A DNA stretch of 64,000 nt from NCBI GenBank assembly GCA_029212405.1, contig JARGNR010000005.1:2621-66620 (forward strand), given 5' to 3'. Under the pieces are notes generated by a model. The model was not told the origin of the DNA, made no database searches, and saw only the letters and a list, made by a program, of their open reading frames with translations. Every line of letters begins with the position of its first letter. Position 1 is the first letter of the stretch. Below are positions 33,944 to 49,790 of this stretch, in pieces. The DNA is from Saprospiraceae bacterium. GTDB taxonomy: Bacteria > Bacteroidota > Bacteroidia > Chitinophagales > Saprospiraceae. Made by a program: the position numbers and the translations under genes.

Positions 33944-33987
33944 ATAAAAAATTATGATAATACACATTGTCATGTACTATCATAATT
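33944..33987 (-). terminator. possible terminator of the three-gene secreted-protein operon
   Basis: Perfect 10-bp inverted repeat aattatgata / tatcataatt with an 18-nt loop, followed by a T-run on the minus strand. The AT-only stem and large loop make it weak. Confidence 0.3.
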
Positions 33988-34058
33988 AAAGTAAATTATC
34001 CCCAGGACTTAAAATGCCCTTTTTGTAAAATGAGAATGGTTAGCAGCTTGATTTTGTT

Positions 34059-35662: not shown

Positions 35663-35663
35663 A

Positions 35664-37232
35664 TTAGAATGAGTTTAAATTGATGTGCCCCTCTTGAATT
35701 TTGCTTAGTTTTTGATTATTTGATTTGTAGACATCAAATTCTACACTATCCAAATCCTTAAAATCGATACTTCCCTGAGTTATCACTATGCTTAATCCAT
35801 CTGCGCTTCCTACCCAAGAGTCAACACTATTCCAATCCAGAATGGTTCCATTCAAGATACCAGCATTATCTAGCAAAATCCATTGATTTTGAGTCTCTAA
35901 ATAAGTCAATGACCATACTGATGATGTTGCAGTTGCGTTCGCACTTATGTTAAATTCTCCATTTCCTTCAGGGGCAATTCCAAAAGCCGGTCTAACACCA
36001 GTAACACCAGCAATATCATTATCCACTTCCAATTTATTTTCACCCTTTTTAAAGTTGAAAGAAACACTCCATTCTTTGAAAGCCGAAGCTCTTGATCCAA
36101 AAGTATTTTGATCTGGATCGACAATTGGTGGTCTACCTTGAATAGCAACTCTTACAAAATCTTTAAAATTGACACGCTCCATGATAAATGAGAAATCCTC
36201 AAAATATAAAGGTTTGCTTGGTGGATCTTCTACATAAATATAATTATCCGATGGTATAAAATCTTCATCAAAAATAGACGATGTATCATCATTCGGTTTT
36301 TCGTTATCCTGATTACTATCAGATGGAAATTGAAAGCTTGGTAAGTCCGTAATGTCAGTCACACCTTCAACAATAGCTTTTCTCAAACCTTCCTTCTGGC
36401 GAGTCAAATCAAAATTAACAATATCCCCGGCTCCATCAGGGAGTACTTTAAATTCAAATAACATTCTACCTCCAATCGTTTTGTTCTCTGTGCCCCCCTC
36501 GCTTCTATGCTCTCCAAAACCATAAAGTTGTCCATCTGCAGATCTTAGCGTTACATTTACGTGATTTACTAATTTGGAGTAATTAAGATTGGATAATTCA
36601 CCAGACCCTGCTTCAGGAGAATACAGTTTAGTAATATATACATCTTCTACCATGCTCCATACTCCAGTAGCTCTGACCTTATCAATTACTTTCGAATTTT
36701 CATCTAGTAAGTGTAGTTCAATGTCCTGAAGGGAACTACTTTCATTGATAGCTTCAATATAAAGTGTTTTATCTAATTCACTACCGTCAATAACAATTTC
36801 ATTATTCGAATCAAAATTAACCAGCCCTCCCTTTGTCGGAGAAGTCCACATCCGTATATCCCCAGAAATCTTCTTTAGTTTAACCATCGAAACCGTTCCA
36901 CTCTTTTGTCGAACTACAAGTTTCATTAAATCTACTTCATTACGCCCTAAAGCACTCGCAACCACTGATGTCTCCGACAATGAATTGTCTATCAACCCAT
37001 CACCATCAGTATCGTTTTTATTGGCTACGGTTCTCGCACCCACATCGTATTTCTCCCCAGACTCCAGTAATTGTCCTCCTGAGTACTCAGTTCCTGAACT
37101 CCAATCATAAAGTCCATTGTATATGTCTAAAACGACATCGCATTCAAAATTTGCACGAACTACATCTGTCTGTGAATGAGAAAGAGTAATTGCAATAAAA
37201 AATAACACTATAAATGAAATTGATTTTTTCAT
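35664..37232 (-). CDS. hypothetical secreted protein (522 aa) with a thrombospondin-type-3-like Ca-binding motif
   Basis: Signal peptide ending SHSQ. NDTDGDGLIDN motif. No other domain recognised. Confidence 0.5.
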   Translation of the reverse strand: MKKSISFIVLFFIAITLSHSQTDVVRANFECDVVLDIYNGLYDWSSGTEYSGGQLLESGEKYDVGARTVANKNDTDGDGLIDNSLSETSVVASALGRNEVDLMKLVVRQKSGTVSMVKLKKISGDIRMWTSPTKGGLVNFDSNNEIVIDGSELDKTLYIEAINESSSLQDIELHLLDENSKVIDKVRATGVWSMVEDVYITKLYSPEAGSGELSNLNYSKLVNHVNVTLRSADGQLYGFGEHRSEGGTENKTIGGRMLFEFKVLPDGAGDIVNFDLTRQKEGLRKAIVEGVTDITDLPSFQFPSDSNQDNEKPNDDTSSIFDEDFIPSDNYIYVEDPPSKPLYFEDFSFIMERVNFKDFVRVAIQGRPPIVDPDQNTFGSRASAFKEWSVSFNFKKGENKLEVDNDIAGVTGVRPAFGIAPEGNGEFNISANATATSSVWSLTYLETQNQWILLDNAGILNGTILDWNSVDSWVGSADGLSIVITQGSIDFKDLDSVEFDVYKSNNQKLSKIQEGHINLNSF

Positions 37233-37498
37233 AATATACTATTGGTTTAAAAATTATAAAATATGATAGCTTATAAACTGGTTTCAAAGATATTTGAATG
37301 TTGTCCGAAAAAAATGGACATCACCATATCTCTAACAATTTTCCTAATTTTATTGGAAGTTAATATGAGTGGAAAACATTTCACCTTGAAATAAAATTAT
37401 AGAGTTCCAAATTATCGAAACTCTTTATTCAAGAGAACACTACACATATATATCAAACTGACTTATTTAATAATTTTTAGCCTTACTTAGTATTCAGC

Positions 37499-38575
37499 TT
37501 ATTGCCCATCCACCATTCCTCTCATTCCATAAAAGTCTATCGCTTTCTGCTTGAGAGGGTTGGTACTCCATTCACCCCATTCTCCTTTATATGGGTTGTA
37601 ACCACATTTCAGGGGCTTACTTAAAATGTCTTCCGGCTCATCTACATAAGCCCTGCAGTCTGTGCAGATATATCGGAATTCACAGTCTTTACAGACATGG
37701 ATTTTGTCTTTATTAATATTCCAGTATTTTTTAAAGTCTGGATTTTCGACTGCTTCAGTAAGAGTGGTATCTACTATATTCCCAAAGGTCTCTTTCATCG
37801 AAGGGCAGTTTTTAATATTGCCATCTGAGTCTATGGAGATCTTCCGATTGAGACAAGAATTATGATTAAGGGATTCAGTAAACATTTTAATATTGGGATT
37901 TAAACTACCGAAAGTTATCTTTCCACAGGAGTTAATATTTAACTTTTCTTGACTTTGATAAAAAATGTTGTCTTCTTCAAAATAAACAATATCATTGGAT
38001 TCGCAACCAAATGCAGCAATCATCATTATTCTTGGTTCTAAAACGAACAAGCCCTGAATCTCACTTCTTTGTTGCCATCTCACTTTTTTGCACAATATAT
38101 TTATACTTTGAAAAGCAGAATTTTTAAACATTTCCAAAATCTTTTCTAAGTCATCCACCACACAATCAAATAAAACTCTCAACTCCAGAGATTTACAACC
38201 CATCATATTGAGCTCAAAAAGTATTTTTTCAAGTTTATCAGTCTGCCTATCTCCTATTTCAATTATAGCGTTTGATATTGCACCCGGAAAATCCCATTCT
38301 AAAGGCATGGGAATAAAAATGTCTGGACAATCCGAAAAGTGGCCCAAATTATTCAAAACTAGATAGTCCAAAAACTCTTGCAATATTGGCAATTCGTCTT
38401 TTGAAAAGTATTCCACATAACGGGAATGAGGTAAATCTCTAATTTTGTTTAGCGCACCTTCTAGTGCCAACGGAAATTTATAAACTTCATTAAATTGCAA
38501 ATCGCAAATAGCTATTTCTTGAGCGCCTTTTACCACCTTACAGTTTTCAAACAATCGAAATATTTTATTATTCAC
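37499..38575 (-). CDS. SPASM-domain peptide maturase lacking the radical-SAM CxxxCxxC motif (the 'grasp-with-spasm' SPASM partner type)
   Basis: GTG start 2 nt after the preceding stop. The C-terminus has the full 7-Cys SPASM pattern C-x10-G-x4-C ... CKDCEFRYICTDC ... C. No CxxxCxxC occurs anywhere in the 358 aa. Confidence 0.75.
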   Translation of the reverse strand: MNNKIFRLFENCKVVKGAQEIAICDLQFNEVYKFPLALEGALNKIRDLPHSRYVEYFSKDELPILQEFLDYLVLNNLGHFSDCPDIFIPMPLEWDFPGAISNAIIEIGDRQTDKLEKILFELNMMGCKSLELRVLFDCVVDDLEKILEMFKNSAFQSINILCKKVRWQQRSEIQGLFVLEPRIMMIAAFGCESNDIVYFEEDNIFYQSQEKLNINSCGKITFGSLNPNIKMFTESLNHNSCLNRKISIDSDGNIKNCPSMKETFGNIVDTTLTEAVENPDFKKYWNINKDKIHVCKDCEFRYICTDCRAYVDEPEDILSKPLKCGYNPYKGEWGEWSTNPLKQKAIDFYGMRGMVDGQ

Positions 38576-38577
38576 CT

Positions 38578-38757
38578 TTACAATTTTACAATTTGAGAAA
38601 TTTCTTTGTAAAACCTCTCAACATAGAATCCAGGTGTTCCGAATTTATCACAATTGACTCCCTTGGGCTTCGAGTTGTTCTTTTTTACTTTAAAATTTGT
38701 AGTATACTTTAAGGGAATGTACTTTTCCCAACTAAGCTTGTTGACATTATTTTCCAT
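38578..38757 (-). CDS. unannotated 59-aa basic ORF between the ATP-grasp and SPASM genes
   Basis: Hand translation gives MENNVNKLSWEKYIPLKYTTNFKVKKNNSKPKGVNCDKFGTPGFYVERFYKEISQIVKL. The ATG is 3 nt after the ATP-grasp stop, and its TAA is 2 nt before the SPASM GTG. It is one codon below the ORF-track cutoff. Confidence 0.45.
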   Translation of the reverse strand: MENNVNKLSWEKYIPLKYTTNFKVKKNNSKPKGVNCDKFGTPGFYVERFYKEISQIVKL

Positions 38758-38760
38758 ATG

Positions 38761-39630
38761 CTATATTACATTTTTTGCAATTTCCCTATCTATTTGATAA
38801 TTACATGACTTAATTAAGAAATCATATTGTCCATTAGGATTGATTTCCAGAAAATACCAAATACCATCATTGATTATAAAATCAATTGATCCCGTTTTGA
38901 AACCAGTTATAGCCTTAAATTTTCGTGTAGATTCCAAAACATTTTGCGGAACTCGAATTGGTACTTCTCTTCTTATTTTCACGTTCCATATATCTGTAGT
39001 ATGGTCTTCATCTTTGACCACAAATGCCATAGCCCAAAATTTGTCATGAAAGAAAAACATCCGCACTTCGACCTCTCTTTTAATGCATTGTTGAAAGAAA
39101 GTAGGATAGAAATTCTCTTCTAAATGTGCGACATCTTCCTCTTCTATCAAAGATGCCCTAAACGCCATATCATTTTGGCCTTCGATAATATTATGTGGTG
39201 CGCTCAAAGGTTTTGTGATAACCCTAAAGCCATTATCTAAGAACTTTAAAAGTTCGCTTTTCTGAGTAGTTAGTAAATATGCCGGTATTGAATAACCAGA
39301 CTCAGATGCTTTCTTCAACATCAATATTCTAGAGGGCTCTTCAAATTTTCCGGTTCCAATAAATTGCTCTTTATTCGCACTTTCAAAGAATTCATACCAA
39401 TACGCCCTTAATTCCTTATATAGATATTTATGCATCAAGCTTTTTTCAGCTGGAACAGGCAATGAAAACTTACGACTATAGATTATCGATTTATCGTCAA
39501 TTGGCAGTTTGAATTCAGGAAAATTCATCTGATCCAGACAATATCTTTTTGCTGGTTTATCATAATAAACTAACCACTCTTGTAATCTATCACAAGAATA
39601 ATCCCTAGAAATAGTTAAAATAATTAGCAT
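38761..39630 (-). CDS. ATP-grasp ribosomal peptide maturase (the 'grasp-with-spasm' ATP-grasp type)
   Basis: 289 aa. ATP-grasp C-terminal signature GSIDFIINDGIWYFLEINPNGQYDF. Adjacent to the SPASM gene and in a cluster with a GG-leader peptide. Confidence 0.75.
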   Translation of the reverse strand: MLIILTISRDYSCDRLQEWLVYYDKPAKRYCLDQMNFPEFKLPIDDKSIIYSRKFSLPVPAEKSLMHKYLYKELRAYWYEFFESANKEQFIGTGKFEEPSRILMLKKASESGYSIPAYLLTTQKSELLKFLDNGFRVITKPLSAPHNIIEGQNDMAFRASLIEEEDVAHLEENFYPTFFQQCIKREVEVRMFFFHDKFWAMAFVVKDEDHTTDIWNVKIRREVPIRVPQNVLESTRKFKAITGFKTGSIDFIINDGIWYFLEINPNGQYDFLIKSCNYQIDREIAKNVI

Positions 39631-39660
39631 GATTTATCGTAAAATTTAAAAGACTCTACA

Positions 39661-40575
39661 TTACATCCTTATACCTACTTTTTTAGCATAATTGGCAATT
39701 GGTGAAAGTCCAATTTGAAACCTTAAAGAATCCACATTACTTACATCCTCAATTGGATAAAATATATTTCTTTTTTCCTCTTTTGAGAATATTACTTGTG
39801 TTCCATACTTCTGTGGAACTCCTTTTTTTACACATACCTTATCGTACATATAGCTCAATTGATGTGGATTGAAAAGCTGTCGCAATTCGTCAAAATAAGT
39901 ATCCATAAATGAAGGCTCATGATGTAAGAATAAAACAAATAATGCCGACACTCCAAGTGGTCCAATTTTTTCATATTTGGGAACACCATTCTTTTCAATC
40001 ATCTCATTTATTCTTGTCTTGTGATCCTTACAAAGTTCTAACCATGGTAAATTTCTTGCTTCTTCCATTAAATGATTCAAACCTGATTTATTTAATTTCT
40101 CCACAAACTCTTCATCTAATCTCAACTCTAACTCAACGGTTCTAAATTGTTGATCCTCAATATGCATCAATACCAACTCTTTGAGAAGAACAGAGTCTAT
40201 ATCAAGCTTCTTTTTGGAATCATTTCGAATTCCTGTACAATAACTAGTGATGCTTTCAAATTTGATAAATTTATCATCAAAGTAACTATCAGCACACATC
40301 CGATCCTTGGTCCTTGGTTTTAAACCATTAAATTTAGATTCAAAAACCTTGTACTCACCTTCCGCATAAAGAATTTTCAATACTAAATAATTGCCAAATG
40401 ACTGCGTAAAGATGGTGTCTTTATATATGCTGCTGTTGTATTTAACTAATCCCTCAGAATACTTATTTTGATCCAACAAATCATTAAGATCATGAATAAA
40501 ATGCCATTCATCAACTTTAGTTTTTTGAGACAATACCGTTGTTGATATCAACAGAAAAACAATAACCTTAAGCAT
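39661..40575 (-). CDS. secreted hypothetical protein; the C-terminal half resembles a DUF6624-like helical domain (from memory, unverified)
   Basis: Signal peptide MLKVIVFLLISTTVLSQ. Motifs HIEDQQFR, NGVPKYEKIGPLGVSALFVLFLHH and QKYGTQ. Begins 3 nt after the upstream gene. Confidence 0.5.
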   Translation of the reverse strand: MLKVIVFLLISTTVLSQKTKVDEWHFIHDLNDLLDQNKYSEGLVKYNSSIYKDTIFTQSFGNYLVLKILYAEGEYKVFESKFNGLKPRTKDRMCADSYFDDKFIKFESITSYCTGIRNDSKKKLDIDSVLLKELVLMHIEDQQFRTVELELRLDEEFVEKLNKSGLNHLMEEARNLPWLELCKDHKTRINEMIEKNGVPKYEKIGPLGVSALFVLFLHHEPSFMDTYFDELRQLFNPHQLSYMYDKVCVKKGVPQKYGTQVIFSKEEKRNIFYPIEDVSNVDSLRFQIGLSPIANYAKKVGIRM

Positions 40576-40578
40576 GAT

Positions 40579-41259
40579 CTAATTATTTTTAACAGTTGCA
40601 GATGTACCATGATTCTTCAAAGAACTAATCTCTGTGGTCAAATCTCCAAATTGATTAAACACTAAATATCTTGGATAAGCGTGTATGTCAAACTCCTCTA
40701 TAATTTCAGACTTTGGTATTGCGAATACGTCACAATCAATATTGTGCTCTTTTAGTATTGCTTCAATATCGTCTTGTTTACTGAATGTAACTACCTTTAC
40801 TGAGTAACTGCTGAAATCTGATTCCATAAGTCTTTTCAAATGTGGCAAGTCCGTTTTACAATGAACACATTCTTTAAACATGAACATTAAAAGCGATTGG
40901 CCGTGTTGATCCTCACCGATATACTTGCTGATCAGAGTCTTTGACATATCACTATCTCCAAATAATTTATTCTTTGCAAACCTGGTTTTAATAATACTTT
41001 GATTCAGGAAGTTCTTTGGCGCCTTTTTTTCTTCTAGTATTGGCATACTCATTCCACCACCATTATCTTTGATCCCCTGCATCTGAAAGTATCTAATTAT
41101 CGGACCACTATCCTCCTTTTTAAACATTTCTATCGCCTCATTAGCGTTAAATACTCTTCCTTCAAGATCAATCACTTTGTCTAATGAAAGCTGCATATCT
41201 TGGGCGAAGACTATGTTGCATAATAGAATTACCAGAACTATATTAAATAGTTTATTCAT
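40579..41259 (-). CDS. periplasmic TlpA/ResA-like thiol-disulfide oxidoreductase
   Basis: Signal peptide. Thioredoxin-fold CxxC in LLMFMFKECVHCKTDLPHL. Overlaps the upstream gene by 8 nt. Confidence 0.65.
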   Translation of the reverse strand: MNKLFNIVLVILLCNIVFAQDMQLSLDKVIDLEGRVFNANEAIEMFKKEDSGPIIRYFQMQGIKDNGGGMSMPILEEKKAPKNFLNQSIIKTRFAKNKLFGDSDMSKTLISKYIGEDQHGQSLLMFMFKECVHCKTDLPHLKRLMESDFSSYSVKVVTFSKQDDIEAILKEHNIDCDVFAIPKSEIIEEFDIHAYPRYLVFNQFGDLTTEISSLKNHGTSATVKNN

Positions 41260-42724
41260 ATGTATTATTTAAAGCAATTTTAATAAAATTCGGATTAATG
41301 TAGGACGGAACCAATCTATTGTTAATAATTAAAACTGGAAAGTAACCTCTCGTAAATTCAGAAATACCTTTCAAATTTTTAAAGTGTACATCTTTTCTAA
41401 TAATAAACTCATTCCCATTCTGTAATATATCTTTATCCTCAGACCATGTAGAAAAGATCTCATAAGAATCTTTAAAATTTCTTTCTTCTATAGCCTTACA
41501 TAATTGCGCATAATAGCGATTATTTTTTTTAGTCTCTTTAAAATTAACGAATACTTCCAATTTCATTGAGTCTGTAATGTTAAGAGCATTCAACATATGA
41601 AGCAACAGCTCTTTACAATGTTTACATCCTAAATTTAAAAATATTTTTACAGAAATTTGGTCATCAGTTTCATTCAGATCTGCTTGCTCCATTGGGGAAC
41701 TAATGTTCATAACGTTCCCAAAATTAGTCCAAGTATAAAATTGCTGAATATTGTATTCTTTCATTTTTTGTTCGTTATTTTCCTTTGAGACAATCTGAAA
41801 TGCAAAAACATACGACATCGCCATGAAAAACATAACATTCAATATTCCCAAATTATTCAATATAGCATAATCTACTATACCAATATCGTACAAAACATAC
41901 GTATTGATAATAACTGTGAAAGCTGCAATAATTAAGCATATTCGACAAAACTCCTTGTATATAAACAGCTGAAAAAACAATGACAACCCAACAATAAAAA
42001 AAGAGGTTACAACTATAATAATTCCAGCAATATTCGCTATTGGAAAACATAGAAGTGAATACAGACACCAAAAAATCGATGACGCTACAGCCATTATTTT
42101 TAAGTCTAGTCCATAGATATTGCTTTCTAAAATGTCATCACAACTGTCCTTCTCCCCACATATCTTATTTATTATGTTAAGACTTCTATCATTATTTCTG
42201 GATCTAAAAAAGAGTAAGATTGGCAGTAAGCTACAAATGGCAAATATTTGTAAAAAAAGTGTTCCTTGAAAATAGGAACACACCAACAATAAAATAATTA
42301 TTATGGCCAGACTGAATTTCAAAATATTGTCCGGCAAAAATGAATATTTGGTTCCAAAATCATTTGAACTAACTAAAGTAGTCCTATCAATATCTTCAAC
42401 TAGTATTTTTACAGGTATAAATTTATTTTTTAAACTAAGATTCAACTCAACTTCTTTATTTGTGGATATAGAATAAAGCATTACCGTATTACCGTTTTTA
42501 TAAGAAATGTAATACTCGCCTAAGTCATCAATAAGTATAGCCGTGACATCCCCCACCAACTCTAAATCAGCCTCGACAATCATGCACTTAACATTATGAC
42601 TGACTAATATTTTGTAGAGGTCTATAATAGATTCTACTCTTATACCGGATTCTGCATTATAACTTATATCAACGTTATAAATTTTGTATATTTTCTTTAC
42701 TATTTTTTCAGTGTCAATTGGCAT
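41252..42724 (-). CDS. VKOR-family membrane oxidoreductase with an N-terminal soluble domain and a C-terminal thioredoxin-like domain
   Basis: Start re-called to the ATG at 42724 (MPIDTEK); the ORF-track TTG start lies inside the terminator T-run. VKOR loop Cys pair CGEKDSC followed by ILESNIYG. TM CxxC in EFCRICLI. C-terminal thioredoxin-like LNLGCKHCKELL. Confidence 0.7.
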   Translation of the reverse strand: MPIDTEKIVKKIYKIYNVDISYNAESGIRVESIIDLYKILVSHNVKCMIVEADLELVGDVTAILIDDLGEYYISYKNGNTVMLYSISTNKEVELNLSLKNKFIPVKILVEDIDRTTLVSSNDFGTKYSFLPDNILKFSLAIIIILLLVCSYFQGTLFLQIFAICSLLPILLFFRSRNNDRSLNIINKICGEKDSCDDILESNIYGLDLKIMAVASSIFWCLYSLLCFPIANIAGIIIVVTSFFIVGLSLFFQLFIYKEFCRICLIIAAFTVIINTYVLYDIGIVDYAILNNLGILNVMFFMAMSYVFAFQIVSKENNEQKMKEYNIQQFYTWTNFGNVMNISSPMEQADLNETDDQISVKIFLNLGCKHCKELLLHMLNALNITDSMKLEVFVNFKETKKNNRYYAQLCKAIEERNFKDSYEIFSTWSEDKDILQNGNEFIIRKDVHFKNLKGISEFTRGYFPVLIINNRLVPSYINPNFIKIALNNTYE

Positions 42725-42742
42725 GTAATATTTTCTTTGATA

Positions 42743-42782
42743 CAAAAAAAAGAGGCAAAGAAGAAATGTTCTTTTTGCCTCT
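42743..42782 (-). terminator. intrinsic terminator/attenuator immediately after the precursor gene
   Basis: The minus-strand transcript has a 9-bp perfect stem agaggcaaa / tttgcctct (extendable with mismatches), followed by a T8 run. It lies between the precursor stop (42802) and the VKOR start (42724). Confidence 0.6.
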
Positions 42783-42801
42783 CTATTTTTATTCGGGTAT
42801 G

Positions 42802-42990
42802 TTACGGTCTACATTCTCCACTGATGTCGTATGTACCTGTACCATCACTATACCATCCTTCTGCACAATCATATACATCAACGGTAGCTCCGGTAGCACC
42901 AGATTTTGAATACTCTCTTGCTCCTCCAGTTAGTTTGTTCAATTCTTTTTTTGTAACTTTTAAAGCTGAAAACTGATTTAATTTTAACAT
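42802..42990 (-). CDS. RiPP/bacteriocin precursor peptide with a Bacteroidetes-type double-glycine leader
   Basis: Re-called from the 91-aa ORF 42802..43077. Sequence: MLKLNQFSALKVTKKELNKLTGG / AREYSKSGATGATVDVYDCAEGWYSDGTGTYDISGECRP. The leader ends in the ..L.K.EL..L.GG motif. An alternative ATG lies at 43020. Confidence 0.7.
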   Translation of the reverse strand: MLKLNQFSALKVTKKELNKLTGGAREYSKSGATGATVDVYDCAEGWYSDGTGTYDISGECRP

Positions 42991-43045
42991 AATTTGAAAA
43001 TTTATAATTGATCTCCTCATTTCACGGGTTTGGAGAATAGCCCGT

Positions 43046-43357
43046 TCATACGCATGATATTGTAAATGTAGGAACATGTTGTCCTAAAAAACTGGACACA
43101 ACTGATCTTCCTCCATATATTTTTGATTTATTTACGAAACCTATTGCCAAAGTTTTATCCTCTACATAATAGTAGCTTTTTCTACATGTACAATACTCGA
43201 TTTCTGCTCCCATACATTTCATAATATCCAAGATTTCATATATAGTAGATTTGGAAAGATTAGTTCGTCTAGCTAAATCCCTAGCAGATCCAGTGGCCTT
43301 CATTTTAATTAGCTGATCTATACGTTCTATAACTTGAATTTTTTCAAAAAACCTCAT
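43046..43357 (-). CDS. small winged-helix/HTH transcriptional regulator
   Basis: 103 aa. HTH segment GSARDLARRTNLSKSTIYEILDIM. Confidence 0.55.
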   Translation of the reverse strand: MRFFEKIQVIERIDQLIKMKATGSARDLARRTNLSKSTIYEILDIMKCMGAEIEYCTCRKSYYYVEDKTLAIGFVNKSKIYGGRSVVSSFLGQHVPTFTISCV

Positions 43358-43400
43358 ATTCTATCGTTTTAGTTTGTAATTGTTATGTATTATCGAAAGC

Positions 43401-44729
43401 TTAATGCTTTTTAAGTATTGAAAGAAATTGATTAAATATCCGTGAAAAAACAGTTTTATTTTCCGTTATCACCTCTGCCGTTACTGACATTTGAGGCTTA
43501 TATTGAATGGTATCTTGATAATCTGTGATAATCGTATTAGGAATCGGAATCTTCAATTCATACATTAATCTCCCATCTCTATTTTCTTCAGGAATTTTAC
43601 TAACAACACTAACCTTAGAAGTTAACACCCCATATTCTTTATAGGGATACCCATCAAACTTTATGATTACATCCTGACCTTTCTCCACCTTACCAATATT
43701 TACACCTGGGAATTCAGCAGTCACATAATTGATTTGATTATCAGTAGGTATTATATACCCTATGGCTTGACCCTGTTTTATATTTTTTTGATCAGAAACA
43801 CCTTTTAAATAGGTGACTTTCCCATCAATTGGAGCCTCAACAATATAGGTTTTATTCCAATTCTCTATGGATGTTTTTATTCTCGAAATTATTTCGGAAA
43901 TACTAAATGTATAATTTTGAAGTGCTTTTGATCTTTTTTGCTTTAAGTTTAGTTTTTCCATCTCTAACTGGTCTATTCTAATTCTATTTTGAATTAGAAT
44001 ATTATTCATTCCTTCAAATTGTCTCTCTTTTTGCAACAATACTGCATGAAATTTCTCAAACTCAGCTCTACTAATTGCACCTTCTATCTCTAATTTCTTG
44101 TTTCGTGAATAATCCACCCTAGACAGTTCAAGTTCTTTTCCATATATCTCCATTTCTTTATTATGTGAACCGTTAAGTACTCCTATTTTTTGAATTTCTC
44201 GATTAATATTATTGATTTGCTGAAAGACTATATCGTCTCTTAACGTTTGTTGTAATTCATTAAATCGTAATTCTAACGAAGCATAATCATTTTGTAATGA
44301 ACCCAACTGCAAACCTTTCACAAAGTCTAGCTGAAGCATCATTTTTATATCTTCAATGGTGTTATATTTTTTGATCCAATGTTCTAATTGTATGATTTGA
44401 GTCTGATCAGTAGTATTGTTTATAAATAAAACCGCTTCACCTTTTTTTACATTGCATCCCTCATGAGCATATATTCGCTCAATATAACCTGTTGATCTAC
44501 TTACCAACTCAATAGGTGGTGCATCAGATGTTAACACTCCTTCCCCTATAAGTTTATCAGGATATTCAAAATAACAAGACCCTGTAAGAAGTATAGAAGT
44601 CACGATAGCTACCATAGTAATTCCAGACCTTAATAACCACCCAGGTGGGTTTCCAATAAGGTCGTGTATTTGTGACTGGGCTGTGGTGTTTATTTCTGAA
44701 TTTGTATGTGTACTTTGAGGTATAGGCAT
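43401..44729 (-). CDS. HlyD-family secretion adaptor (membrane fusion protein)
   Basis: N-terminal TM segment, lipoyl-like hairpin (VKKGEAVLFI), long coiled coil and a beta-barrel C-terminus. Sits directly downstream of the C39 ABC exporter. Confidence 0.8.
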   Translation of the reverse strand: MPIPQSTHTNSEINTTAQSQIHDLIGNPPGWLLRSGITMVAIVTSILLTGSCYFEYPDKLIGEGVLTSDAPPIELVSRSTGYIERIYAHEGCNVKKGEAVLFINNTTDQTQIIQLEHWIKKYNTIEDIKMMLQLDFVKGLQLGSLQNDYASLELRFNELQQTLRDDIVFQQINNINREIQKIGVLNGSHNKEMEIYGKELELSRVDYSRNKKLEIEGAISRAEFEKFHAVLLQKERQFEGMNNILIQNRIRIDQLEMEKLNLKQKRSKALQNYTFSISEIISRIKTSIENWNKTYIVEAPIDGKVTYLKGVSDQKNIKQGQAIGYIIPTDNQINYVTAEFPGVNIGKVEKGQDVIIKFDGYPYKEYGVLTSKVSVVSKIPEENRDGRLMYELKIPIPNTIITDYQDTIQYKPQMSVTAEVITENKTVFSRIFNQFLSILKKH

Positions 44730-44844
44730 AATTTATATGAGATTTGATCTAACCAATAGATAAATATTGGACTGGAATACAGTTTCAAATTTTAAGCAGT
44801 TAATAAAATTGACTTGTTATAGCGAATTCATTTCCACTTTTCAT

Positions 44845-47034
44845 CTAACTCCCCAATTCCAATTGATTTTTAACTAATTCAAAATATTTTCCTTTCTTTT
44901 TAACTAATTTCTTGTGCTTTCCTACCTCAACAATTTCACCATTCTCTAACACAACTATTTGATCTGCATTCTTTACAGTGCTTAGTCTATGTGCCACTAC
45001 TATTGCAGTTCTACCATATAAAAACTTCTCCAAATTATTCATAATCACTCTCTCATTACTAGCATCTAAAGAATTTGTTGCTTCATCAAAAAATAGAAAT
45101 TCAGGGTTTTTGTACATTGCTCTCGCAATAAATAATCGCTGTTTCTGGCCTTGACTTATTCCATTCCCTTTAGGCCCAATCATCGTATTCAGCCCCAAAG
45201 GCAAATCTTTAATAAAATCCATAATGTTAGCTTGAACAGATGCTGCTAAAATCTTACTGGTATTCGCTGTATCATCACTCTCTGAAATATTATTTGCAAT
45301 TGTATCAGAAAATATAAAGCCTTCTTGCATTACAACTCCACATTGTTGCCTCCATATTTTCTTATAAATTGTATCAAGATCTTGTGCTCCCACCTTAATG
45401 ACACCTCTACTAGGCTTATAAAAGCCCAATAAAAGCTTGATTAGTGTGGTCTTTCCACTTCCACTAGAACCAACAATTGCAGTGGTCTTTCCTCGTGGAA
45501 TACACAAACTAATATCCTTTAACACCTCTTCCGAAATTGGAGTATAACGAAAACTCAAATTTTTAATCAAAATATCACCCTCCGGTATCACACTAATCTT
45601 TTGTTCATCCTCTTTTTCTTCATTCTCGGCACCATGAATTTCGGAAAGTCGTTCCAAGCTAATTTTAGCATCCTGCGCTGATCTAATAAAGCCAATCATT
45701 TGTTGTAGTGGTCCGTTTAATTGACCAATAATGTATTGTACAGCCAACATCATCCCTAAGGTCATTGAACCTTCTAGAACAAGTTTCGCGGCAAAGAATG
45801 TGATGACGATATCTTTCAACTGATTAATAGACAATGCTCCCGCATCTTGGTATTGAGATATACTCAATGATTTCATTTGTGTACGAAATAGCTTTGCTTG
45901 AATTCCCGCCCACTTCCATCGTCGTTTGAGTTGACTGCCCTGAAGTTTAATTTCTGACATACCTTGGATAATCTCAATGAGAGAATCTTGATTATCAGAA
46001 AATTGCTGAAATGCACGATAATCAACCTCTTTACGCATTCTTAGGAAAAAGAAAATCCACCCAACGTATAACATGGATGAAAATATGAAAATGAAAAAAA
46101 TAGTAGTGCTATATATTGCCAACACCACACCAAAAACTACTAAATTGGTTATAGACAATAAAACACTAAGACTTGAGTTAGTCAAGAATGACTCGATTCG
46201 TTTATGATCCCCTATTCGCTGAAGTAAATCACCCGTATTTTTTGAATCAAAAAAACCCAAAGGCAAGTGCATTAACTTTAAAAGAAAATCAGCTATTAAA
46301 CTGACATTTATACGAATACTAATATGTAACAATATCCAACTCTGAATGAAGCGAACCATAGTAGAACCAACAAACAATGCAAGTTGTCCAGCCAGTACCA
46401 AATAAATAAAATTTAAGTTCTTAGTATCTATTCCAATATCAACTAAACTCTGTGTTAAAAAGGGAAATATCAATTGAAAAACTGTTCCTAATAATAAACC
46501 TATTATCAACTGGAACATCAACTTTCGATGTGGTTTTAAATACTCAAAAAGAAATCCAAAACCTTTTTTCTCATTATCTTCTAAATCCCGTTTATGAAAA
46601 CCTATGGTTGGTTCAAGCAATAAAGCAACACCTTGATTGTTATCCGTAATCCATGACTTCTCAAACTCCTCTATTGATAACTTATGCTTGGAACTTGCAG
46701 GATCAGAAATATAAACATGAGATTTCGTTATCTTATATATAACAACAAAATGATTTTGATTCCAATGTCCAATACACGGCAATGGAGCTTCAGACAAAGA
46801 AGGCATATCTTTTTTTCCAGAAGTAGGTATCTTGACAGCCAAAGTTCTCAAGCCAATAAGTTCAGCTGCTTCACTTATCCCTTTCAAACTTACACCAGCC
46901 TTATCGATATAACACTTCTCTCTTAAAAATGGAAGCGAGTATGTTTTTCCGTGTGCCTTTGCAATCATACGCAAGCAGGTAGGGCCACAATCCATTGAAT
47001 CCAACTGGCGGTAATGTTTGAATTTATCTATCAT
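44845..47034 (-). CDS. peptidase C39 domain-containing ABC transporter (double-glycine leader cleavage and export)
   Basis: N-terminal C39 domain with catalytic Cys in QLDSMDCGPTCLRM. Six-TM domain. Walker A GSSGSGKTT, signature ISQGQKQR, Walker B FLFFDEATNSLD. Confidence 0.9.
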   Translation of the reverse strand: MIDKFKHYRQLDSMDCGPTCLRMIAKAHGKTYSLPFLREKCYIDKAGVSLKGISEAAELIGLRTLAVKIPTSGKKDMPSLSEAPLPCIGHWNQNHFVVIYKITKSHVYISDPASSKHKLSIEEFEKSWITDNNQGVALLLEPTIGFHKRDLEDNEKKGFGFLFEYLKPHRKLMFQLIIGLLLGTVFQLIFPFLTQSLVDIGIDTKNLNFIYLVLAGQLALFVGSTMVRFIQSWILLHISIRINVSLIADFLLKLMHLPLGFFDSKNTGDLLQRIGDHKRIESFLTNSSLSVLLSITNLVVFGVVLAIYSTTIFFIFIFSSMLYVGWIFFFLRMRKEVDYRAFQQFSDNQDSLIEIIQGMSEIKLQGSQLKRRWKWAGIQAKLFRTQMKSLSISQYQDAGALSINQLKDIVITFFAAKLVLEGSMTLGMMLAVQYIIGQLNGPLQQMIGFIRSAQDAKISLERLSEIHGAENEEKEDEQKISVIPEGDILIKNLSFRYTPISEEVLKDISLCIPRGKTTAIVGSSGSGKTTLIKLLLGFYKPSRGVIKVGAQDLDTIYKKIWRQQCGVVMQEGFIFSDTIANNISESDDTANTSKILAASVQANIMDFIKDLPLGLNTMIGPKGNGISQGQKQRLFIARAMYKNPEFLFFDEATNSLDASNERVIMNNLEKFLYGRTAIVVAHRLSTVKNADQIVVLENGEIVEVGKHKKLVKKKGKYFELVKNQLELGS

Positions 47035-47436
47035 CCTTTATTACAAGTTTAAACTAGTAATAAAATGCCTATACGATTATTTTACATTTATCGTTAAGTC
47101 GCTGCAATAGTGTTAATCTGTAGATGTAATTGGTCTACTGTACTACTAATCAGAGCCTATGTATTAGAAATAATCCAATGTTTCCGACTAGACTAAATCA
47201 AGGTTTGGAAAAGGCATTTTATGTATCGTGTAATTTAAATAGTATAGTGAGAAATTAAAACATAGAAGAATCCTTACCATTCTTCACAAACACTTCTTAA
47301 CACATCAAAAAATGTAATATTCTATCAAGCACTATGTACATATATACCACAAAATCTTTAAACGTAATCACTTCTTTTCAAAAACTGGAAAATATTTCAT
47401 ACAAAAATCAACTTCCATTTAAACTAAATATATAAC

Positions 47437-47495: not shown

Positions 47496-47969
47496 TTATT
47501 CTTCCTCATTAGAAGCTACTGGTGGAGTGTTGGCACTTGATTTACCTTTTCCTCCTCTTCTGCTTCTTTTGCCCGATTTAGCAGCTGTCTTACCACCAGA
47601 AACATAATCTGTGTTAAAATCAACCAACTCAATCATTGCCATTTCAGCAGAATCACTTTTTCTAGCTCCTGTTCGTATAATACGTACATAACCACCTGGT
47701 CTATCAGCAATCTTATCTGCTACTACATCAAACAATTCTTTCACAACTTCCTTATTCATTAATCTAGAAAATACAACTCTTCTTGAGTGCGTTGTGTTTG
47801 TCTTAGATTTTGTGATAAGTGGCTCCACAAATACTCTTAAAGCTTTAGCCTTTGCTAGAGTAGTTGTAATTCTTTTGTGTGTAATAAGAGCCCCAGCCAA
47901 TGATTTCAACAATGCCTTTCTGTGCCCTTTCTTTCTCTTAAGGTGATTAAATTTCTTTCCGTGTCTCAT
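47496..47969 (-). CDS. rplQ: 50S ribosomal protein L17 (with a long basic/Gly-rich C-terminal tail)
   Basis: [21 protein letters not shown]... Last gene of the alpha operon. Confidence 0.95.
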
Positions 47970-48100
47970 TTCTTTTATGATTTACGTCCTGCCACTAACT
48001 ATTTACCTCTTTTACAGCTTTTAGAGAAATAAATAATCGTTTAGCAAATGATATAATTATATCCTGACCATTGTCAGAGCTGTGTGATACTAAAATTCAA

Positions 48101-49099
48101 TTAATCTTCGTCCAACTTATATTTAGACAAGTCCATTCCAAAAGTAAGGCCTTTATTCTGTAGCAACTCTTCGATCTCTACTAATGACTTCTTACCAAAG
48201 TTTCTGAACTTCAATAACTCATGAGTATCGTATCTAACCATCTCTCCTAAAGAGTTGATCTTAGCCGCTTTCAGACAGTTATACGCTCTTACAGACAAAT
48301 CAAGATCTTCAAGAGAAGTTTTAAGTAATTTACGCATATGTAATATGTGCTCATCTACTATATTCTCTTCTCTACTACTTGAATCATTAAATGTGATATT
48401 CTCATCTGTGATCAACATCAAATGTTGAATCATAATTCTAGAAGCTTCTTTAACCGCTTCTTCAGGATGAATCGTACCATCCGTTTTAACCTCAATAGTT
48501 AACTTCTCGTAATCTGTTCTCTGTCCAACTCTGGTATTTTCAATCTTATACGCTACTTTCTTAATAGGTGTATAGATTGCATCAACAGGAATTACTCCAA
48601 TCGGAGCATCTTTTGGCAAATTTTCATCAGCAGGAACATATCCTCTTCCTTTTGTAATAGTAAACTCGATTTCTAAGTTTACAGAGGGCTCCATTTGACA
48701 AATCAATAATTCAGGGTTCATCACCTTGAATATATTTGTACTAGATTCTATGTCACCAGCTAAAAATTGCTCTTTACCAGTTATAGTTAAATATATTTTT
48801 TCTTCACTATTGCTCTCATCAACAATCATTGGCTTTAATCTTACCTGCTTTAGGTTAAGAATAATGTCAACAACGTCTTGTACTACTCCTTGAATAGTTG
48901 AAAATTCGTGATCAACTCCTGCAATTCTAACCGCAGAAATTGAATACCCTTCTAGAGAGGACAATAATATTCTTCGTAGTGAATTTCCTATGGTTTGGCC
49001 AAAACCTGGCTCCAATGGTTTAAATTCAAAAGTACCGTCAAAATCATCTGCTTTTTGTAATAGTATTTTGTCAGGCTTCTGAAAATTTAGAATACTCAT
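48101..49099 (-). CDS. rpoA: DNA-directed RNA polymerase subunit alpha
   Basis: 332 aa. LEPGFGQTIGNSLRRILLSS and the C-terminal-domain motif LSVRAYNCLK. Confidence 0.95.
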   Translation of the reverse strand: MSILNFQKPDKILLQKADDFDGTFEFKPLEPGFGQTIGNSLRRILLSSLEGYSISAVRIAGVDHEFSTIQGVVQDVVDIILNLKQVRLKPMIVDESNSEEKIYLTITGKEQFLAGDIESSTNIFKVMNPELLICQMEPSVNLEIEFTITKGRGYVPADENLPKDAPIGVIPVDAIYTPIKKVAYKIENTRVGQRTDYEKLTIEVKTDGTIHPEEAVKEASRIMIQHLMLITDENITFNDSSSREENIVDEHILHMRKLLKTSLEDLDLSVRAYNCLKAAKINSLGEMVRYDTHELLKFRNFGKKSLVEIEELLQNKGLTFGMDLSKYKLDED

Positions 49100-49145
49100 T
49101 CTATCGTATTTTATGTATGAAAAGGAAATTAAATAAACAGGAATA

Positions 49146-49165
49146 GGCTATCCAAAAGGATAGCC
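49146..49165 (-). other. perfect 8-bp hairpin in the rpsD-rpoA spacer (possible internal attenuator or processing site)
   Basis: ggctatcc-aaaa-ggatagcc read directly. Only a weak T-tract follows on the minus strand. Confidence 0.3.
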
Positions 49166-49175
49166 AATTCTGATA

Positions 49176-49790
49176 TTACTTAGAGTATAATTCAACAATC
49201 AATTGTTCATTGATCTTCTCTGGAATTTTATCTCTTTCTGGATAAGCTAAGAATTTGCCTTCCATCCTTTCTGGATTCCATTCTAGCCAGCCCCAATTTC
49301 TAACATCTGATTTAGATTTAATTGAGTTGTCTATTACGTCCAGACTTCTACTTTTTCCTCTAATGGAAACTACATCACCAGGTCTTAATAACATGGATGG
49401 TACATTTGTAACCACCCCATTAACCATGATGTGTTTGTGAGAAACTAGCTGTCTTGCGCCTCTTCTAGTAGGTGCAATTCCTAATCTGAAAACAGTATTA
49501 TCAAGTCTTCCTTCTAGATACTGCAACAATATTTCACCTGTTACACCACTCTTTCTACTTGCTTTCTCAAATAGGTTTCTAAATTGACGCTCCAACATTC
49601 CGTATGTGTACTTAGCTTTTTGCTTTTCCATCAACTGTAATGCATAATCAGACTTTTGACGTCTTCTCTTATTTCCACCACCGTGTTGACCCGGAGCATA
49701 TTTTCTTCTTTCAAATGCTTTGTCAGCACCGAATATAGCCTCGCCTAACGCTCTTGCTTTCTTAGTTCTTGGTCCAGTATATCTTGCCAT
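49176..49790 (-). CDS. rpsD: 30S ribosomal protein S4
   Basis: [16 protein letters not shown]...; operon position. Confidence 0.95.

What the first reader, a model, noticed from the sequence alone, without database searches (positions are those of the whole stretch)
42802..42990. Hidden GG-leader precursor whose core pairs many ester donors and acceptors with two Cys
The ORF track shows a 91-aa ORF that overlaps the HTH gene. Starting at the ATG at 42990 instead gives a textbook Bacteroidetes double-glycine leader, MLKLNQFSALKVTKKELNKLTGG. The 39-aa core is AREYSKSGATGATVDVYDCAEGWYSDGTGTYDISGECRP.

Counted directly, the core has 8 Ser/Thr, 7 Asp/Glu, 1 Lys, 4 Tyr, 6 Gly and exactly 2 Cys. Each Cys is preceded by an acidic residue and lies 9 residues after a TG dipeptide: TGATVDVYDC and TGTYDISGEC. 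This suggests two crosslinking modules.

The donor/acceptor richness fits an ATP-grasp substrate. The Cys pair fits the VKOR/TlpA genes, or alternatively SPASM-type thioether chemistry.
Basis: partly seen in the sequence, partly recalled or inferred. Interest (0 to 1): 0.8.

Follow-up and report, generated by a model that had tools for sequence, protein, structure and literature searches.

The report
Precursor peptide of a grasp-with-SPASM cluster
The small gene is real and encodes the exported precursor peptide of a bacterial peptide-modification gene cluster of a kind already catalogued by genome mining, though no product of that kind has been characterised chemically in the papers I could search.

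Summary
The 62-codon ORF at 42802-42990 (-) is exactly as described, and every residue count is right. It is a real gene. Its only relative (92% identical, from a marine metagenome) differs by 19 synonymous and 5 non-synonymous codons (dN/dS 0.08). That relative has stop codons in the 91-aa extension. A strong hairpin with a U-run follows the stop.

It is not hidden in the public record: GenBank lists it as hypothetical protein MDF1694683.1 (Saprospiraceae MAG).

It sits in the usual precursor slot of a "grasp-with-spasm" graspetide cluster (Makarova 2022 branch 5; RODEO group 14). The cluster has PCAT, HlyD, an HTH regulator, the precursor, DUF6624, an ATP-grasp, an LPL-family small ORF and a SPASM protein.

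GG-leader ORFs occupy this slot in 61 of 81 sequences examined. Their cores cannot be aligned, but their composition matches: median 8 Ser/Thr, 7 Asp/Glu and net charge -4, identical to this core.

Inserted beside the precursor are a fusion protein (C39-like, VKOR and DsbA-like domains) and a TlpA-like protein. These favour a disulfide between the two Cys.

Canonical SPASM thioether chemistry is not supported. None of 120 homologues has a CxxxCxxC motif, and 16 of 70 cognate cores lack Cys.

Verdict: a new member of a known, chemically uncharacterised kind.

The parts
42802..42990 (-). Precursor peptide gene, 62 aa. The leader is codons 1-23 (42922-42990), ending in GG. The core is 39 aa (42805-42921). 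The stop is at 42802-42804.
   Evidence: Translation. dN/dS of 0.079 against L001, and stop codons upstream in L001. Leader matrix score at the 99.5th percentile. Annotated as MDF1694683.1.
42742..42792 (-). Hairpin followed by a U8 run, starting a few bases after the stop codon. It is likely an intrinsic terminator or attenuator that sets the ratio of precursor to enzymes.
   Evidence: Folding energy is -20.2 kcal/mol with z = -6.45, and 0 of 200 shuffles fold as well. L001 has a different sequence at the same place that still forms a hairpin.
43046..43357 (-). Small HTH regulator, 103 aa. It carries a conserved internal double-glycine site (KSKIYGG|RSV...) followed by a 20-aa tail.
   Evidence: Sub-threshold Pfam HTH matches. 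18 homologues sit in the same slot of related loci, all with the GG. The GG site scores like a leader.
43401..44729 (-). HlyD-family membrane fusion protein of the exporter.
   Evidence: TIGR01843 E = 9e-34, 117.2 bits against a curated cut-off of 208.65; Pfam HlyD_3 above its threshold. Syntenic in related loci.
44845..47034 (-). Peptidase-C39 ABC transporter (PCAT). It is predicted to cut the leader after GG and export the peptide.
   Evidence: Pfam Peptidase_C39 1.7e-34, ABC_membrane and ABC_tran. TIGR03796 and TIGR01193 are strong matches below their curated cut-offs.
41252..42724 (-). Membrane fusion protein, 490-497 aa, with three parts: a C39-like N-terminal domain, a VKOR-like membrane core (C-x5-C loop and a CRIC motif) and a DsbA-like thioredoxin domain (CKHC motif and cis-Pro).
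   Evidence: The protein itself gives no Pfam or PDB sequence match. Of 27 aligned homologues, 23 match VKOR, 15 match Peptidase_C39 and 10 match Thioredoxin_4. Invariant residues are C196, C202, C267, C270, C374, C377 and P470. The AlphaFold model matches DsbA, ScsC and BdbD.
40579..41259 (-). TlpA/ResA-like secreted thioredoxin-fold protein with a CVHC motif.
   Evidence: Sub-threshold matches to AhpC-TSA, Thioredoxin_8, StoA and ResA at E of about 1e-4. The signal-peptide-like N-terminus was judged by eye.
39661..40575 (-). DUF6624 secreted protein, probably the 'cluster 23' family of Makarova et al. 2022 (equivalence inferred, not tested).
   Evidence: Pfam DUF6624 scores 32.8 bits against a cut-off of 27. 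Relatives found by an iterated profile lie directly upstream of 40 of 69 ATP-grasp genes.
38761..39630 (-). ATP-grasp peptide maturase, gwsG-like and divergent.
   Evidence: The best match is TIGR04192 at 4.1e-39, but 134.8 bits is below the cut-off of 230. It keeps all 10 invariant columns of 73 homologues, but has W215 where 97% have Arg.
38578..38757 (-). LPL-family small protein, 59 aa, with IPL...FYKEISQI motifs. It is not annotated in the GenBank record.
   Evidence: It matches a profile built from the equivalent ORFs of the other loci at E = 6e-9. Family consensus is LPl...FYKPISKI. Only a Logan assembly carries it as a called protein.
37499..38575 (-). SPASM-domain protein without a radical-SAM cluster (gwsS). 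It has an RRE-like N-terminal domain, then an alpha/beta region, then an 8-Cys SPASM region.
   Evidence: TIGR04193 scores 327.7 bits against a cut-off of 175. None of 120 homologues has CxxxCxxC. The AlphaFold model and Foldseek give domain-level matches to RREs (TbiB1, PbtF, lasso B1) and to SuiB and CteB.

Best explanation
The ORF is the structural gene for the exported peptide of a grasp-with-SPASM graspetide cluster in a Saprospiraceae bacterium.

Shown here: the gene is real, it starts at the ATG at 42990, it is under purifying selection, it carries a double-glycine leader, and it occupies the conserved precursor slot of this cluster type.

Inferred pathway:
1. The 62-aa precursor is made in excess over the enzymes, because a hairpin terminator follows its stop codon.
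2. In the cytoplasm the 23-aa leader docks the peptide to the maturation complex. That complex is the ATP-grasp ligase plus the rSAM-less SPASM protein, whose N-terminus looks like a RiPP recognition element, plus the small LPL protein.
3. The ATP-grasp joins Thr/Ser side chains to Asp/Glu side chains as esters. The two T-x(1-2)-T-x-D-x(2-3)-[DE]-C modules are the likely ring sites.
4. The C39 domain of the ABC exporter cuts after Gly23, and the 39-aa core is exported with HlyD.
5. Outside the cytoplasm, the adjacent C39-like/VKOR/DsbA-like fusion protein and the TlpA-like protein oxidise Cys19 and Cys37 of the core to a disulfide. This closes a 19-residue loop holding the recurrent aromatic-S/D-D-G motif.

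The SPASM protein probably does not make radical-SAM thioethers. Its chemical role, if any, is unknown.
For: The gene is real.
- 19 synonymous against 5 non-synonymous codon changes; dN/dS is 0.079.
- Its dN of 0.057 is lower than that of the neighbouring HTH (0.22) and HlyD (0.41) genes.
- The extension is broken in L001.
- A terminator hairpin has z = -6.45.

Cluster identity.
- TIGR04193 is above its cut-off, and TIGR04192 is the best match for the ATP-grasp.
- The LPL ORF matches at E = 6e-9.
- DUF6624 is above its Pfam cut-off; C39-ABC and HlyD are present.
- The gene order matches that of 79 related loci.

Precursor slot.
- GG-leader ORFs lie upstream of the ATP-grasp in 61 of 81 sequences examined.
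- The leader resembles that of L002 at E = 2.5e-5 and scores at the 99.5th percentile on the family matrix.

Core composition.
- T, D and G are about 2-fold enriched and C is 3-fold enriched in the cores.
- Family medians of 8 S/T, 7 D/E and net charge -4 are identical to this core.

Disulfide.
- The gene next to the precursor encodes a VKOR plus DsbA-like fusion.
- Full-length homologues occur only in loci whose cores contain Cys: the window, L024, L026 and L029. Partial copies at contig ends occur in L001 and L055.
- In related Saprospiraceae cores the aromatic-SDG motif is likewise bracketed by two Cys: L003 has CGWTSYSDGGSGHC and L055 has CSFYSDGGIYC.

Literature.
- Makarova et al. 2022 (PMC8939145) describe this system as branch 5, with GG precursors, the LPL family and cluster 23.
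- Carter et al. 2026 (PMC13097080) list it as group 14, uncharacterised.
Against: - No experiment or computation here shows that the ATP-grasp acts on this peptide.
- The ATP-grasp scores below the curated TIGR04192 cut-off (134.8 against 230) and has lost a 97%-conserved Arg (W215). It could have altered or reduced activity.
- The core has only one known relative, so conservation of individual donor and acceptor residues cannot be judged.
- VKOR-like genes are present in only about 6 of about 80 loci. Their link to Cys-containing cores is consistent but not statistically significant, because 57% of cores have at least 2 Cys anyway.
- If the exporter spans both membranes, the peptide might bypass the periplasm.
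- The topology of the fusion protein is unresolved: six hydrophobic segments were found.
Confidence: 0.7

Rival explanations
1. The GG-leader peptide is a leader-cleaved, disulfide-bonded bacteriocin-like peptide. Only the exporter and the VKOR/DsbA-like/TlpA module mature it. The ATP-grasp and SPASM pair act on something else, most plausibly the conserved LPL peptide encoded between them, much as PqqA or MftA are encoded next to their maturases.
For: - The precursor's immediate neighbour is the disulfide machinery, not the ATP-grasp.
- In L024, L026 and L029 the VKOR-like gene is flanked by other Cys-rich GG peptides.
- The LPL ORF has a strongly conserved C-terminal motif (FYKPISKI) and lies directly upstream of the SPASM gene in nearly all loci.
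- The SPASM protein has an RRE-like domain that could bind the LPL peptide.
Against: - The FYKPISKI motif has no conserved acidic residue for an ATP-grasp ester or amide.
- GG-leader cores across the family are uniformly rich in S/T and D/E even when Cys-free: 68 of 69 have at least 3 of each. That is what an ATP-grasp substrate needs.
- Most loci with GG precursors have no VKOR gene.
- Makarova et al. 2022 judged LPL to be an auxiliary protein rather than a precursor.
Confidence: 0.15
2. The two Cys are converted to thioether (sactionine- or ranthionine-like) cross-links by the SPASM protein, as the first reader proposed as an alternative.
For: - The SPASM protein has the eight conserved Cys of auxiliary Fe-S clusters. 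Its model resembles the sactipeptide and streptide maturases CteB and SuiB in domain order.
- Cys is 3-fold enriched in cognate cores.
- Makarova et al. 2022 suggested thioethers.
Against: - None of 120 homologues has the CxxxCxxC motif that binds the radical-SAM cluster needed for all known thioether-forming SPASM enzymes.
- 16 of 70 non-redundant cognate cores have no Cys, and 14 have only one, although every locus has the SPASM gene.
- A dedicated disulfide-forming fusion protein sits next to this precursor.
Confidence: 0.1
3. The ORF is spurious, or the real product is the 91-aa protein that overlaps the HTH gene.
For: The longest-ORF track lists 91 aa.
Against: - dN/dS is 0.079 within the 62 codons.
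- Stop codons and frameshifting indels lie in the extension in L001.
- The 91-aa form is absent from a collection of about 15 billion proteins, while the 62-aa form is present in two sources.
Confidence: 0.02

Closest known systems
Grasp-with-SPASM graspetide clusters. These are gwsG/gwsS (NCBIfam TIGR04192/TIGR04193), 'branch 5' of Makarova et al. 2022 (PMC8939145) and RODEO 'group 14' of Carter et al. 2026 (PMC13097080).
   Same: Same gene set and order: C39-ABC exporter, HlyD, GG-motif precursor upstream of the ATP-grasp, a secreted DUF6624-type protein (probably 'cluster 23'), the ATP-grasp, an LPL small ORF and the SPASM protein. The precursor cores are hypervariable and rich in T/S, D/E and Cys. 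The system is restricted to Bacteroidota.
   Different: - The core sequence is an orphan with one relative only.
- A C39-like/VKOR/DsbA-like fusion gene and a TlpA-like gene are inserted between the precursor and DUF6624. That paper does not mention this feature, and it occurs in only about 6 of about 80 loci.
- The ATP-grasp is divergent: below the curated cut-off, with Arg replaced by W215.
Microviridin and marinostatin-type graspetides, and multi-module graspetides such as plesiocin, thuringinin and chryseoviridin (from established knowledge of the class).
   Same: An ATP-grasp ligase is predicted to join Thr/Ser to Asp/Glu side chains. This core shows two similar donor/acceptor modules, as multi-module graspetides do.
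   Different: - Those precursors carry the enzyme-binding motif (PFFARFL-like) in their own leader. Here the leader is a plain GG export leader, and a separate LPL protein carries the similar motif.
- Those systems have no SPASM partner or disulfide machinery.
RRE-containing radical-SAM/SPASM peptide maturases (SuiB, CteB).
   Same: The model suggests the same domain order: an RRE-like N-terminus, an alpha/beta barrel-like middle and a Cys-rich SPASM C-terminus.
   Different: - There is no CxxxCxxC motif in any of 120 homologues, so no radical-SAM cluster.
- The Foldseek whole-chain E-values are weak (0.04-0.16). Only the RRE domain matches are convincing, with probability 0.99 and TM-score 0.61-0.68 on the target.
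Double-glycine-leader bacteriocins with a dedicated thiol-disulfide oxidoreductase, such as pediocin-type systems with an accessory thioredoxin-like protein (from established knowledge).
   Same: A GG leader cut by a C39 exporter, and a Cys pair with a cluster-encoded oxidoreductase.
   Different: Those peptides are otherwise unmodified. Here an ATP-grasp and SPASM pair is also present, and the core has the graspetide-type composition.

Membership tests
Grasp-with-SPASM (gws / branch 5 / group 14) graspetide cluster | SPASM-domain maturase of family TIGR04193 | tested here: met
   327.7 bits against a curated cut-off of 175, full-length match.
Grasp-with-SPASM (gws / branch 5 / group 14) graspetide cluster | ATP-grasp maturase of family TIGR04192, adjacent to the SPASM gene | tested here: inconclusive
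   TIGR04192 is the best hit (E = 4.1e-39), but 134.8 bits is below the cut-off of 230. The gene is adjacent and on the same strand. It keeps all 10 invariant columns of 73 homologues but has W215 instead of the 97%-conserved Arg.
Grasp-with-SPASM (gws / branch 5 / group 14) graspetide cluster | Small LPL-family ORF directly upstream of the SPASM gene | tested here: met
   The ORF at 38578-38757 matches a profile built from the other loci at E = 6e-9, with both the IPL and FYKEISQI motifs.
Grasp-with-SPASM (gws / branch 5 / group 14) graspetide cluster | [quoted passage not shown] | tested here: met
   Gene order is shown. Peptidase_C39 is at 1.7e-34.
Grasp-with-SPASM (gws / branch 5 / group 14) graspetide cluster | Side-chain ester or amide cross-links in the mature peptide | not testable with these tools
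   This needs mass spectrometry of the matured peptide. No product of this group is described in the papers found.
TIGR04149 (GG_sam_targ_CFB) precursor family | Score at or above the curated cut-off of the model | tested here: not met
   16.3 bits against a cut-off of 25, and the match covers the leader only.
Double-glycine leader peptides (substrates of C39 peptidases) | GG at -2/-1, hydrophobic residues at -4, -7 and -12, an acid at -8, and a leader of 15-30 residues | tested here: met
   The leader reads ...V(-12)..KE(-8)L(-7)NKL(-4)TGG and is 23 residues long. It scores at the 99.5th percentile on the family matrix. Pfam ComC is sub-threshold at 16.8 against 20.4.
Sactipeptide or ranthipeptide-type thioether peptides (radical-SAM/SPASM) | The maturase carries the CxxxCxxC radical-SAM cluster motif | tested here: not met
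   None of 120 homologues, and not the window protein, has the motif. All invariant Cys lie in the C-terminal SPASM region.
VKOR-thioredoxin fusion disulfide oxidoreductases | VKOR domain with a loop Cys pair and a membrane CxxC | tested here: inconclusive
   The window protein itself gives no Pfam hit. 23 of 27 homologues found by HMMER match Pfam VKOR, and C196, C202, C267 and C270 are invariant.
VKOR-thioredoxin fusion disulfide oxidoreductases | Fused thioredoxin or DsbA-like domain with a CxxC and a cis-Pro | tested here: met
   C374, C377 and P470 are invariant. The model matches DsbA, ScsC and BdbD with probability 1.00 and E from 7e-4. The model's pLDDT is 79-90 over residues 361-440.

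The most novel reading that the evidence does not exclude
This would be the first graspetide that combines cytoplasmic ATP-grasp ester rings with an extracytoplasmic disulfide installed by a cluster-encoded C39-like/VKOR/DsbA fusion. In this reading, leader recognition is outsourced. An rSAM-less SPASM protein keeps only its RRE and Fe-S domains, and a trans-acting LPL peptide supplies the ATP-grasp-activating motif that other graspetides carry in their own leader. A further untested possibility is that the cluster's HTH regulator is itself clipped at its conserved GG site by the exporter's protease, which would couple export to transcription.
Probability: 0.35. Interest if true: 0.6.

Novelty: new member of a known kind. 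Interest (0 to 1): 0.35.

Why it matters
Grasp-with-SPASM clusters were described in 190 Bacteroidetes loci in 2022. At least 574 hits were confirmed in one genome per species here. No product, ring pattern or role for the SPASM partner is reported in the papers I could search, up to 2026.

This locus is a compact, complete example with a single precursor, so it is a clean candidate for heterologous reconstitution. The adjacent disulfide-forming fusion protein predicts a specific, easily testable extra modification.

The peptide itself is one more orphan core among many. It does not change the picture of the class.

Tried and rejected
- **Precursor against 5.8 billion proteins.** Only one relative was found.
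- **Metagenome contig scan with the precursor.** 301 pattern matches, none confirmed.
- **phmmer of the core against all 8,320 small ORFs of the 80 loci.** No hit beyond the L001 orthologue.
TG-x7-C, [DE]C, [ST]-x-D and [ST]G[ST] are not enriched over shuffles.
- **Word-indexed homology search with the 497-aa protein.** It saturated and returned only the protein itself.
- **PDB sequence searches.** Nothing meaningful for the 497-aa protein, and nothing for the SPASM profile.
- **Pfam on four 'slot' proteins upstream of other ATP-grasp genes.** No DUF6624 hit. I replaced this with an iterated local profile. An earlier run of that script timed out.
- **Rfam over 42000-43600.** No RNA family matched.
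- **The consensus terminator scan.** It missed the hairpin after the precursor, so I folded it directly.
- **Literature.** One search failed on term length. A search for VKOR with C39 and bacteriocin found nothing.
- **Topology of the VKOR fusion.** Six hydrophobic segments were found, which leaves the side of the C39-like domain unresolved.
Full report
**The observation**

On the minus strand, the ATG at 42990 opens a 62-codon ORF that ends at 42802. Its product is MLKLNQFSALKVTKKELNKLTGG followed by AREYSKSGATGATVDVYDCAEGWYSDGTGTYDISGECRP. The mechanical ORF list gives the 91-aa version, 42802-43077, which overlaps the 103-aa HTH gene at 43046-43357.

Both TG-x6-[DE]-C strings are present.

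**Is it a gene?**

A search of 5.8 billion proteins found a single relative, P0001. It is 62 aa, 92% identical, and comes from a JGI marine metagenome. Its 2.5-kb contig (L001) has the same order: HlyD, HTH, precursor, then the start of the 497-aa protein.

Between the two genes, 19 codons differ synonymously and 5 non-synonymously. Of the 27 base changes, 19 are at third positions, and dN/dS is 0.079. One Ser codon has switched from AGT to TCT.

The precursor is the most conserved gene of the stretch. Its dN is 0.057, against 0.22 for the HTH gene and 0.41 for HlyD.

In L001 the in-frame sequence upstream of the ATG contains stop codons. Single-base indels also separate the HTH stop from the ATG. 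The 62-aa start is therefore the conserved one, not the 91-aa one.

Directly after the stop lies a hairpin followed by eight U. It folds at -20.2 kcal/mol with z = -6.45. L001 has a different sequence there that still pairs. No Rfam family matches the region.

The gene is not hidden in the public record. The exact 62-aa sequence is GenBank MDF1694683.1, 'hypothetical protein P1U56_02575', from a Saprospiraceae MAG. The longer forms are absent.

**The surroundings**

All genes from 47034 down to 37499 are on the minus strand. In order they are:

- a C39-peptidase ABC exporter;
- an HlyD protein;
- a small HTH protein;
- the precursor;
- a 497-aa membrane protein;
- a TlpA-like thioredoxin-fold protein;
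- a DUF6624 protein (32.8 bits against a cut-off of 27);
- an ATP-grasp enzyme, whose best match is TIGR04192 'grasp-with-spasm system ATP-grasp peptide maturase' at 134.8 bits, below the cut-off of 230;
- a 59-aa ORF;
- a SPASM-domain protein that matches TIGR04193 'grasp-with-spasm system SPASM domain peptide maturase' at 327.7 bits, above the cut-off of 175.

**Related loci**

A profile of 38 SPASM homologues pulled 79 loci from one genome per species. All are Bacteroidota: Saprospiraceae, Chitinophagales, Flavobacterium, Aquimarina, Tenacibaculum, Taibaiella and others. At least 574 hits were confirmed in total.

The gene order is conserved. The exporter genes and often the HTH gene flank one or more small ORFs. 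A secreted protein follows, then the ATP-grasp, a gap of about 150-250 bases, and the SPASM gene.

The gap always holds a small ORF with the consensus LPl...Yqt...FYKPISKI. The window's 59-aa ORF matches a profile of the others at E = 6e-9. An iterated profile finds DUF6624-like genes directly upstream of 40 of 69 ATP-grasp genes.

**Equivalent small ORFs**

GG-leader ORFs on the same strand, mostly 2-3.5 kb upstream of the SPASM gene, were found in 61 of 81 sequences examined (79 genome loci, L001 and the window). Most of the rest are truncated contigs.

The window leader resembles the leader of the closest locus, L002, at E = 2.5e-5. It scores 17.6 bits on a position matrix built from 73 other leaders. 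That exceeds 99.5% of GG-ending 18-mers in other proteins of the same loci.

It has the classical pattern: Leu at -4 and -7, Glu at -8 and Val at -12. Curated leader models match only below threshold.

**The cores**

The cores cannot be aligned. The window core hits nothing but its orthologue. Even L002, whose SPASM protein is 51% identical, has an unrelated core.

Composition, however, is uniform. Across 70 non-redundant cores, Cys is 3-fold enriched over the proteins of the same loci, and Gly, Thr, Asp and Trp are about 2-fold enriched. Of 69 cores, 68 have at least 3 Ser/Thr and at least 3 Asp/Glu. The medians are 8 Ser/Thr, 7 Asp/Glu and net charge -4, which are exactly the window's values.

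Cys counts run from 0 to 4 in the non-redundant set: 16 cores have none, 14 have one, 21 have two, 13 have three and 6 have four.

TG-x7-C occurs in 2 of 70 cores against 1.3 expected, and [DE]C in 19 against 17.6. Within this one peptide the two modules are unlikely to arise by shuffling (5e-6), but that test is post hoc.

A motif I noticed in the same data does recur. An aromatic residue, an optional residue, S/D, then D-G is found in 14 of 70 cores against 1.4 expected. This test is also post hoc. The window has WYSDG. In the Saprospiraceae loci L003 and L055 the motif is bracketed by two Cys, as it is here.

**The disulfide genes**

The 497-aa protein has no direct Pfam or PDB sequence match. 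An exhaustive HMMER search found 35 relatives. Of 27 that I aligned, 23 match Pfam VKOR, 15 match Peptidase_C39 and 10 match Thioredoxin_4.

Seven residues are invariant. C196 and C202 form the loop pair. C267 and C270 form the membrane CxxC. C374 and C377 form the thioredoxin CxxC. P470 is the cis-Pro. The modelled C-terminal domain matches DsbA, ScsC and BdbD.

The protein is therefore a self-contained disulfide-forming enzyme with a C39-like N-terminal domain.

Full-length relatives occur in the window, L024, L026 and L029 (two copies). Partial copies at contig ends occur in L001 and L055. All of these loci have Cys-containing cores. This is consistent with a disulfide, but the numbers are too small for significance.

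**The SPASM protein**

None of 120 homologues has a CxxxCxxC motif. The eight invariant Cys all lie in the C-terminal region.

The AlphaFold model is confident for residues 1-210 and poor for the Cys-rich part. Foldseek matches the first 80 or so residues to RiPP recognition elements: TbiB1, PbtF and lasso B1, with probability 0.99 and TM-score 0.61-0.68 on the target. The whole chain matches SuiB and CteB only weakly.

It looks like a radical-SAM/SPASM maturase that has lost its radical-SAM cluster. Known thioether chemistry needs that cluster, and about a quarter of cognate cores have no Cys. The thioether alternative is therefore not supported.

**Comparison with the literature**

- Makarova et al. 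2022 (PMC8939145) describe this system as ATP-grasp 'branch 5'. They report 190 Bacteroidetes loci, 87 precursor clusters with GG motifs and frequent Cys, the LPL family directly upstream of the SPASM gene, and the secreted 'cluster 23' family.
- That paper does not mention VKOR, thioredoxin or disulfides.
- Carter et al. 2026 (PMC13097080) list it as group 14, defined by co-occurrence with a SPASM protein, without characterising it.
- A 2026 preprint notes that the precursor of gwsG/gwsS clusters is often not called by gene finders.
- I found no paper that reports a product.

**Conclusion**

The finding is a correct identification of a real precursor gene. It is a new member of a kind already known from genome mining.

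The ATP-grasp reading is the standard inference for this class and remains untested. The disulfide reading is well supported by the neighbouring gene. The thioether reading is not supported.

Two cautions apply to this locus:

- The ATP-grasp is divergent and has W215 where 97% of relatives have Arg.
- The LPL peptide, with its strongly conserved C-terminal motif, remains a possible alternative substrate of the enzyme pair.

Noticed in passing
window 43046-43357 (-), and the HTH homologues in L001, L003, L005-L008, L010, L016, L019, L022, L027, L030, L032, L048 and L077-L079: All 19 small HTH regulators next to the precursors carry a strictly conserved double-glycine site about 85-90 residues in. 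Typical forms are KLLxIRGG|EKK; the window has KSKIYGG|RSV. A tail of 3-47 residues follows, with a loosely conserved F..F...NF[CG]....C pattern. On a matrix built from precursor leaders, 17 of 19 sites score above about 97% of GG-ending 12-mers of other proteins in the same loci. The regulator may be clipped by the exporter's C39 protease.
   Followed up: partly
window 38578-38757 (-), and the equivalent gap ORFs in 79 loci: The LPL-family small ORF has a C-terminal motif, FYKPISKI, that is far more conserved than the 'LPL' motif it was named after. In size, position and conservation pattern it resembles cofactor-type precursors such as PqqA or MftA. It is not annotated in the GenBank record of this MAG.
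   Followed up: partly
window 37499-38575 (-): The SPASM protein models with an RRE-like N-terminal domain (three strands and three helices). None of 120 homologues has a CxxxCxxC motif. It is therefore a SPASM maturase without a radical-SAM cluster that may still bind leaders.
   Followed up: partly
cores of L009, L025, L026, L029, L039, L058 and L071 (GG-leader ORFs upstream of the ATP-grasp): Several cores carry a D-x-[ND]-G-[DN]-G string, for example DDKNGDG and DSNGNGQWD. It occurs in 7 of 70 cores against 0.1 expected. It looks like a calcium-binding loop motif and is often bracketed by Cys.
   Followed up: no
window 42802-42990, compared with 43046-44729 and L001: Between the two known relatives, the precursor (dN 0.057) is much more conserved than the adjacent HTH (0.22) and HlyD (0.41) genes. 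This is the opposite of the hypervariability seen at greater distances. A block of about 30 bases just upstream of the ATG (AAACCCGTGAAATGAGGAGATCAATTA) is also almost identical in both.
   Followed up: partly
window 38761-39630 (-), residue 215: The ATP-grasp has Trp where 97% of 73 homologues have Arg (motif D-x-R). It keeps every fully invariant column.
   Followed up: no
window about 33500-47100: The cluster lies between housekeeping genes. By eye, enolase and carA sit at 31096-33534, and rplQ, rpoA and rpsD sit at 47496-49790. G+C is 30-34% across most of the cluster, against 37-39% at 28-33 kb. This suggests an inserted island, although the ribosomal genes at 47-49 kb are also about 33%.
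   Followed up: no
window 34059-37232 (-): Three genes lie downstream of the SPASM gene. A 522-aa and a 222-aa protein have signal-like N-termini and no family match. A 330-aa protein has a type IX secretion sorting domain (Por_Secre_tail, 2.5e-14) and an SprB repeat. Whether they belong to the cluster is unknown.
   Followed up: no
window 41252-42724 (-): The VKOR fusion protein has six hydrophobic segments. If the Cys loop and the DsbA-like domain face outward, the C39-like N-terminal domain would also be placed outside the cytoplasm. This is unexpected for a C39-type domain.
   Followed up: no
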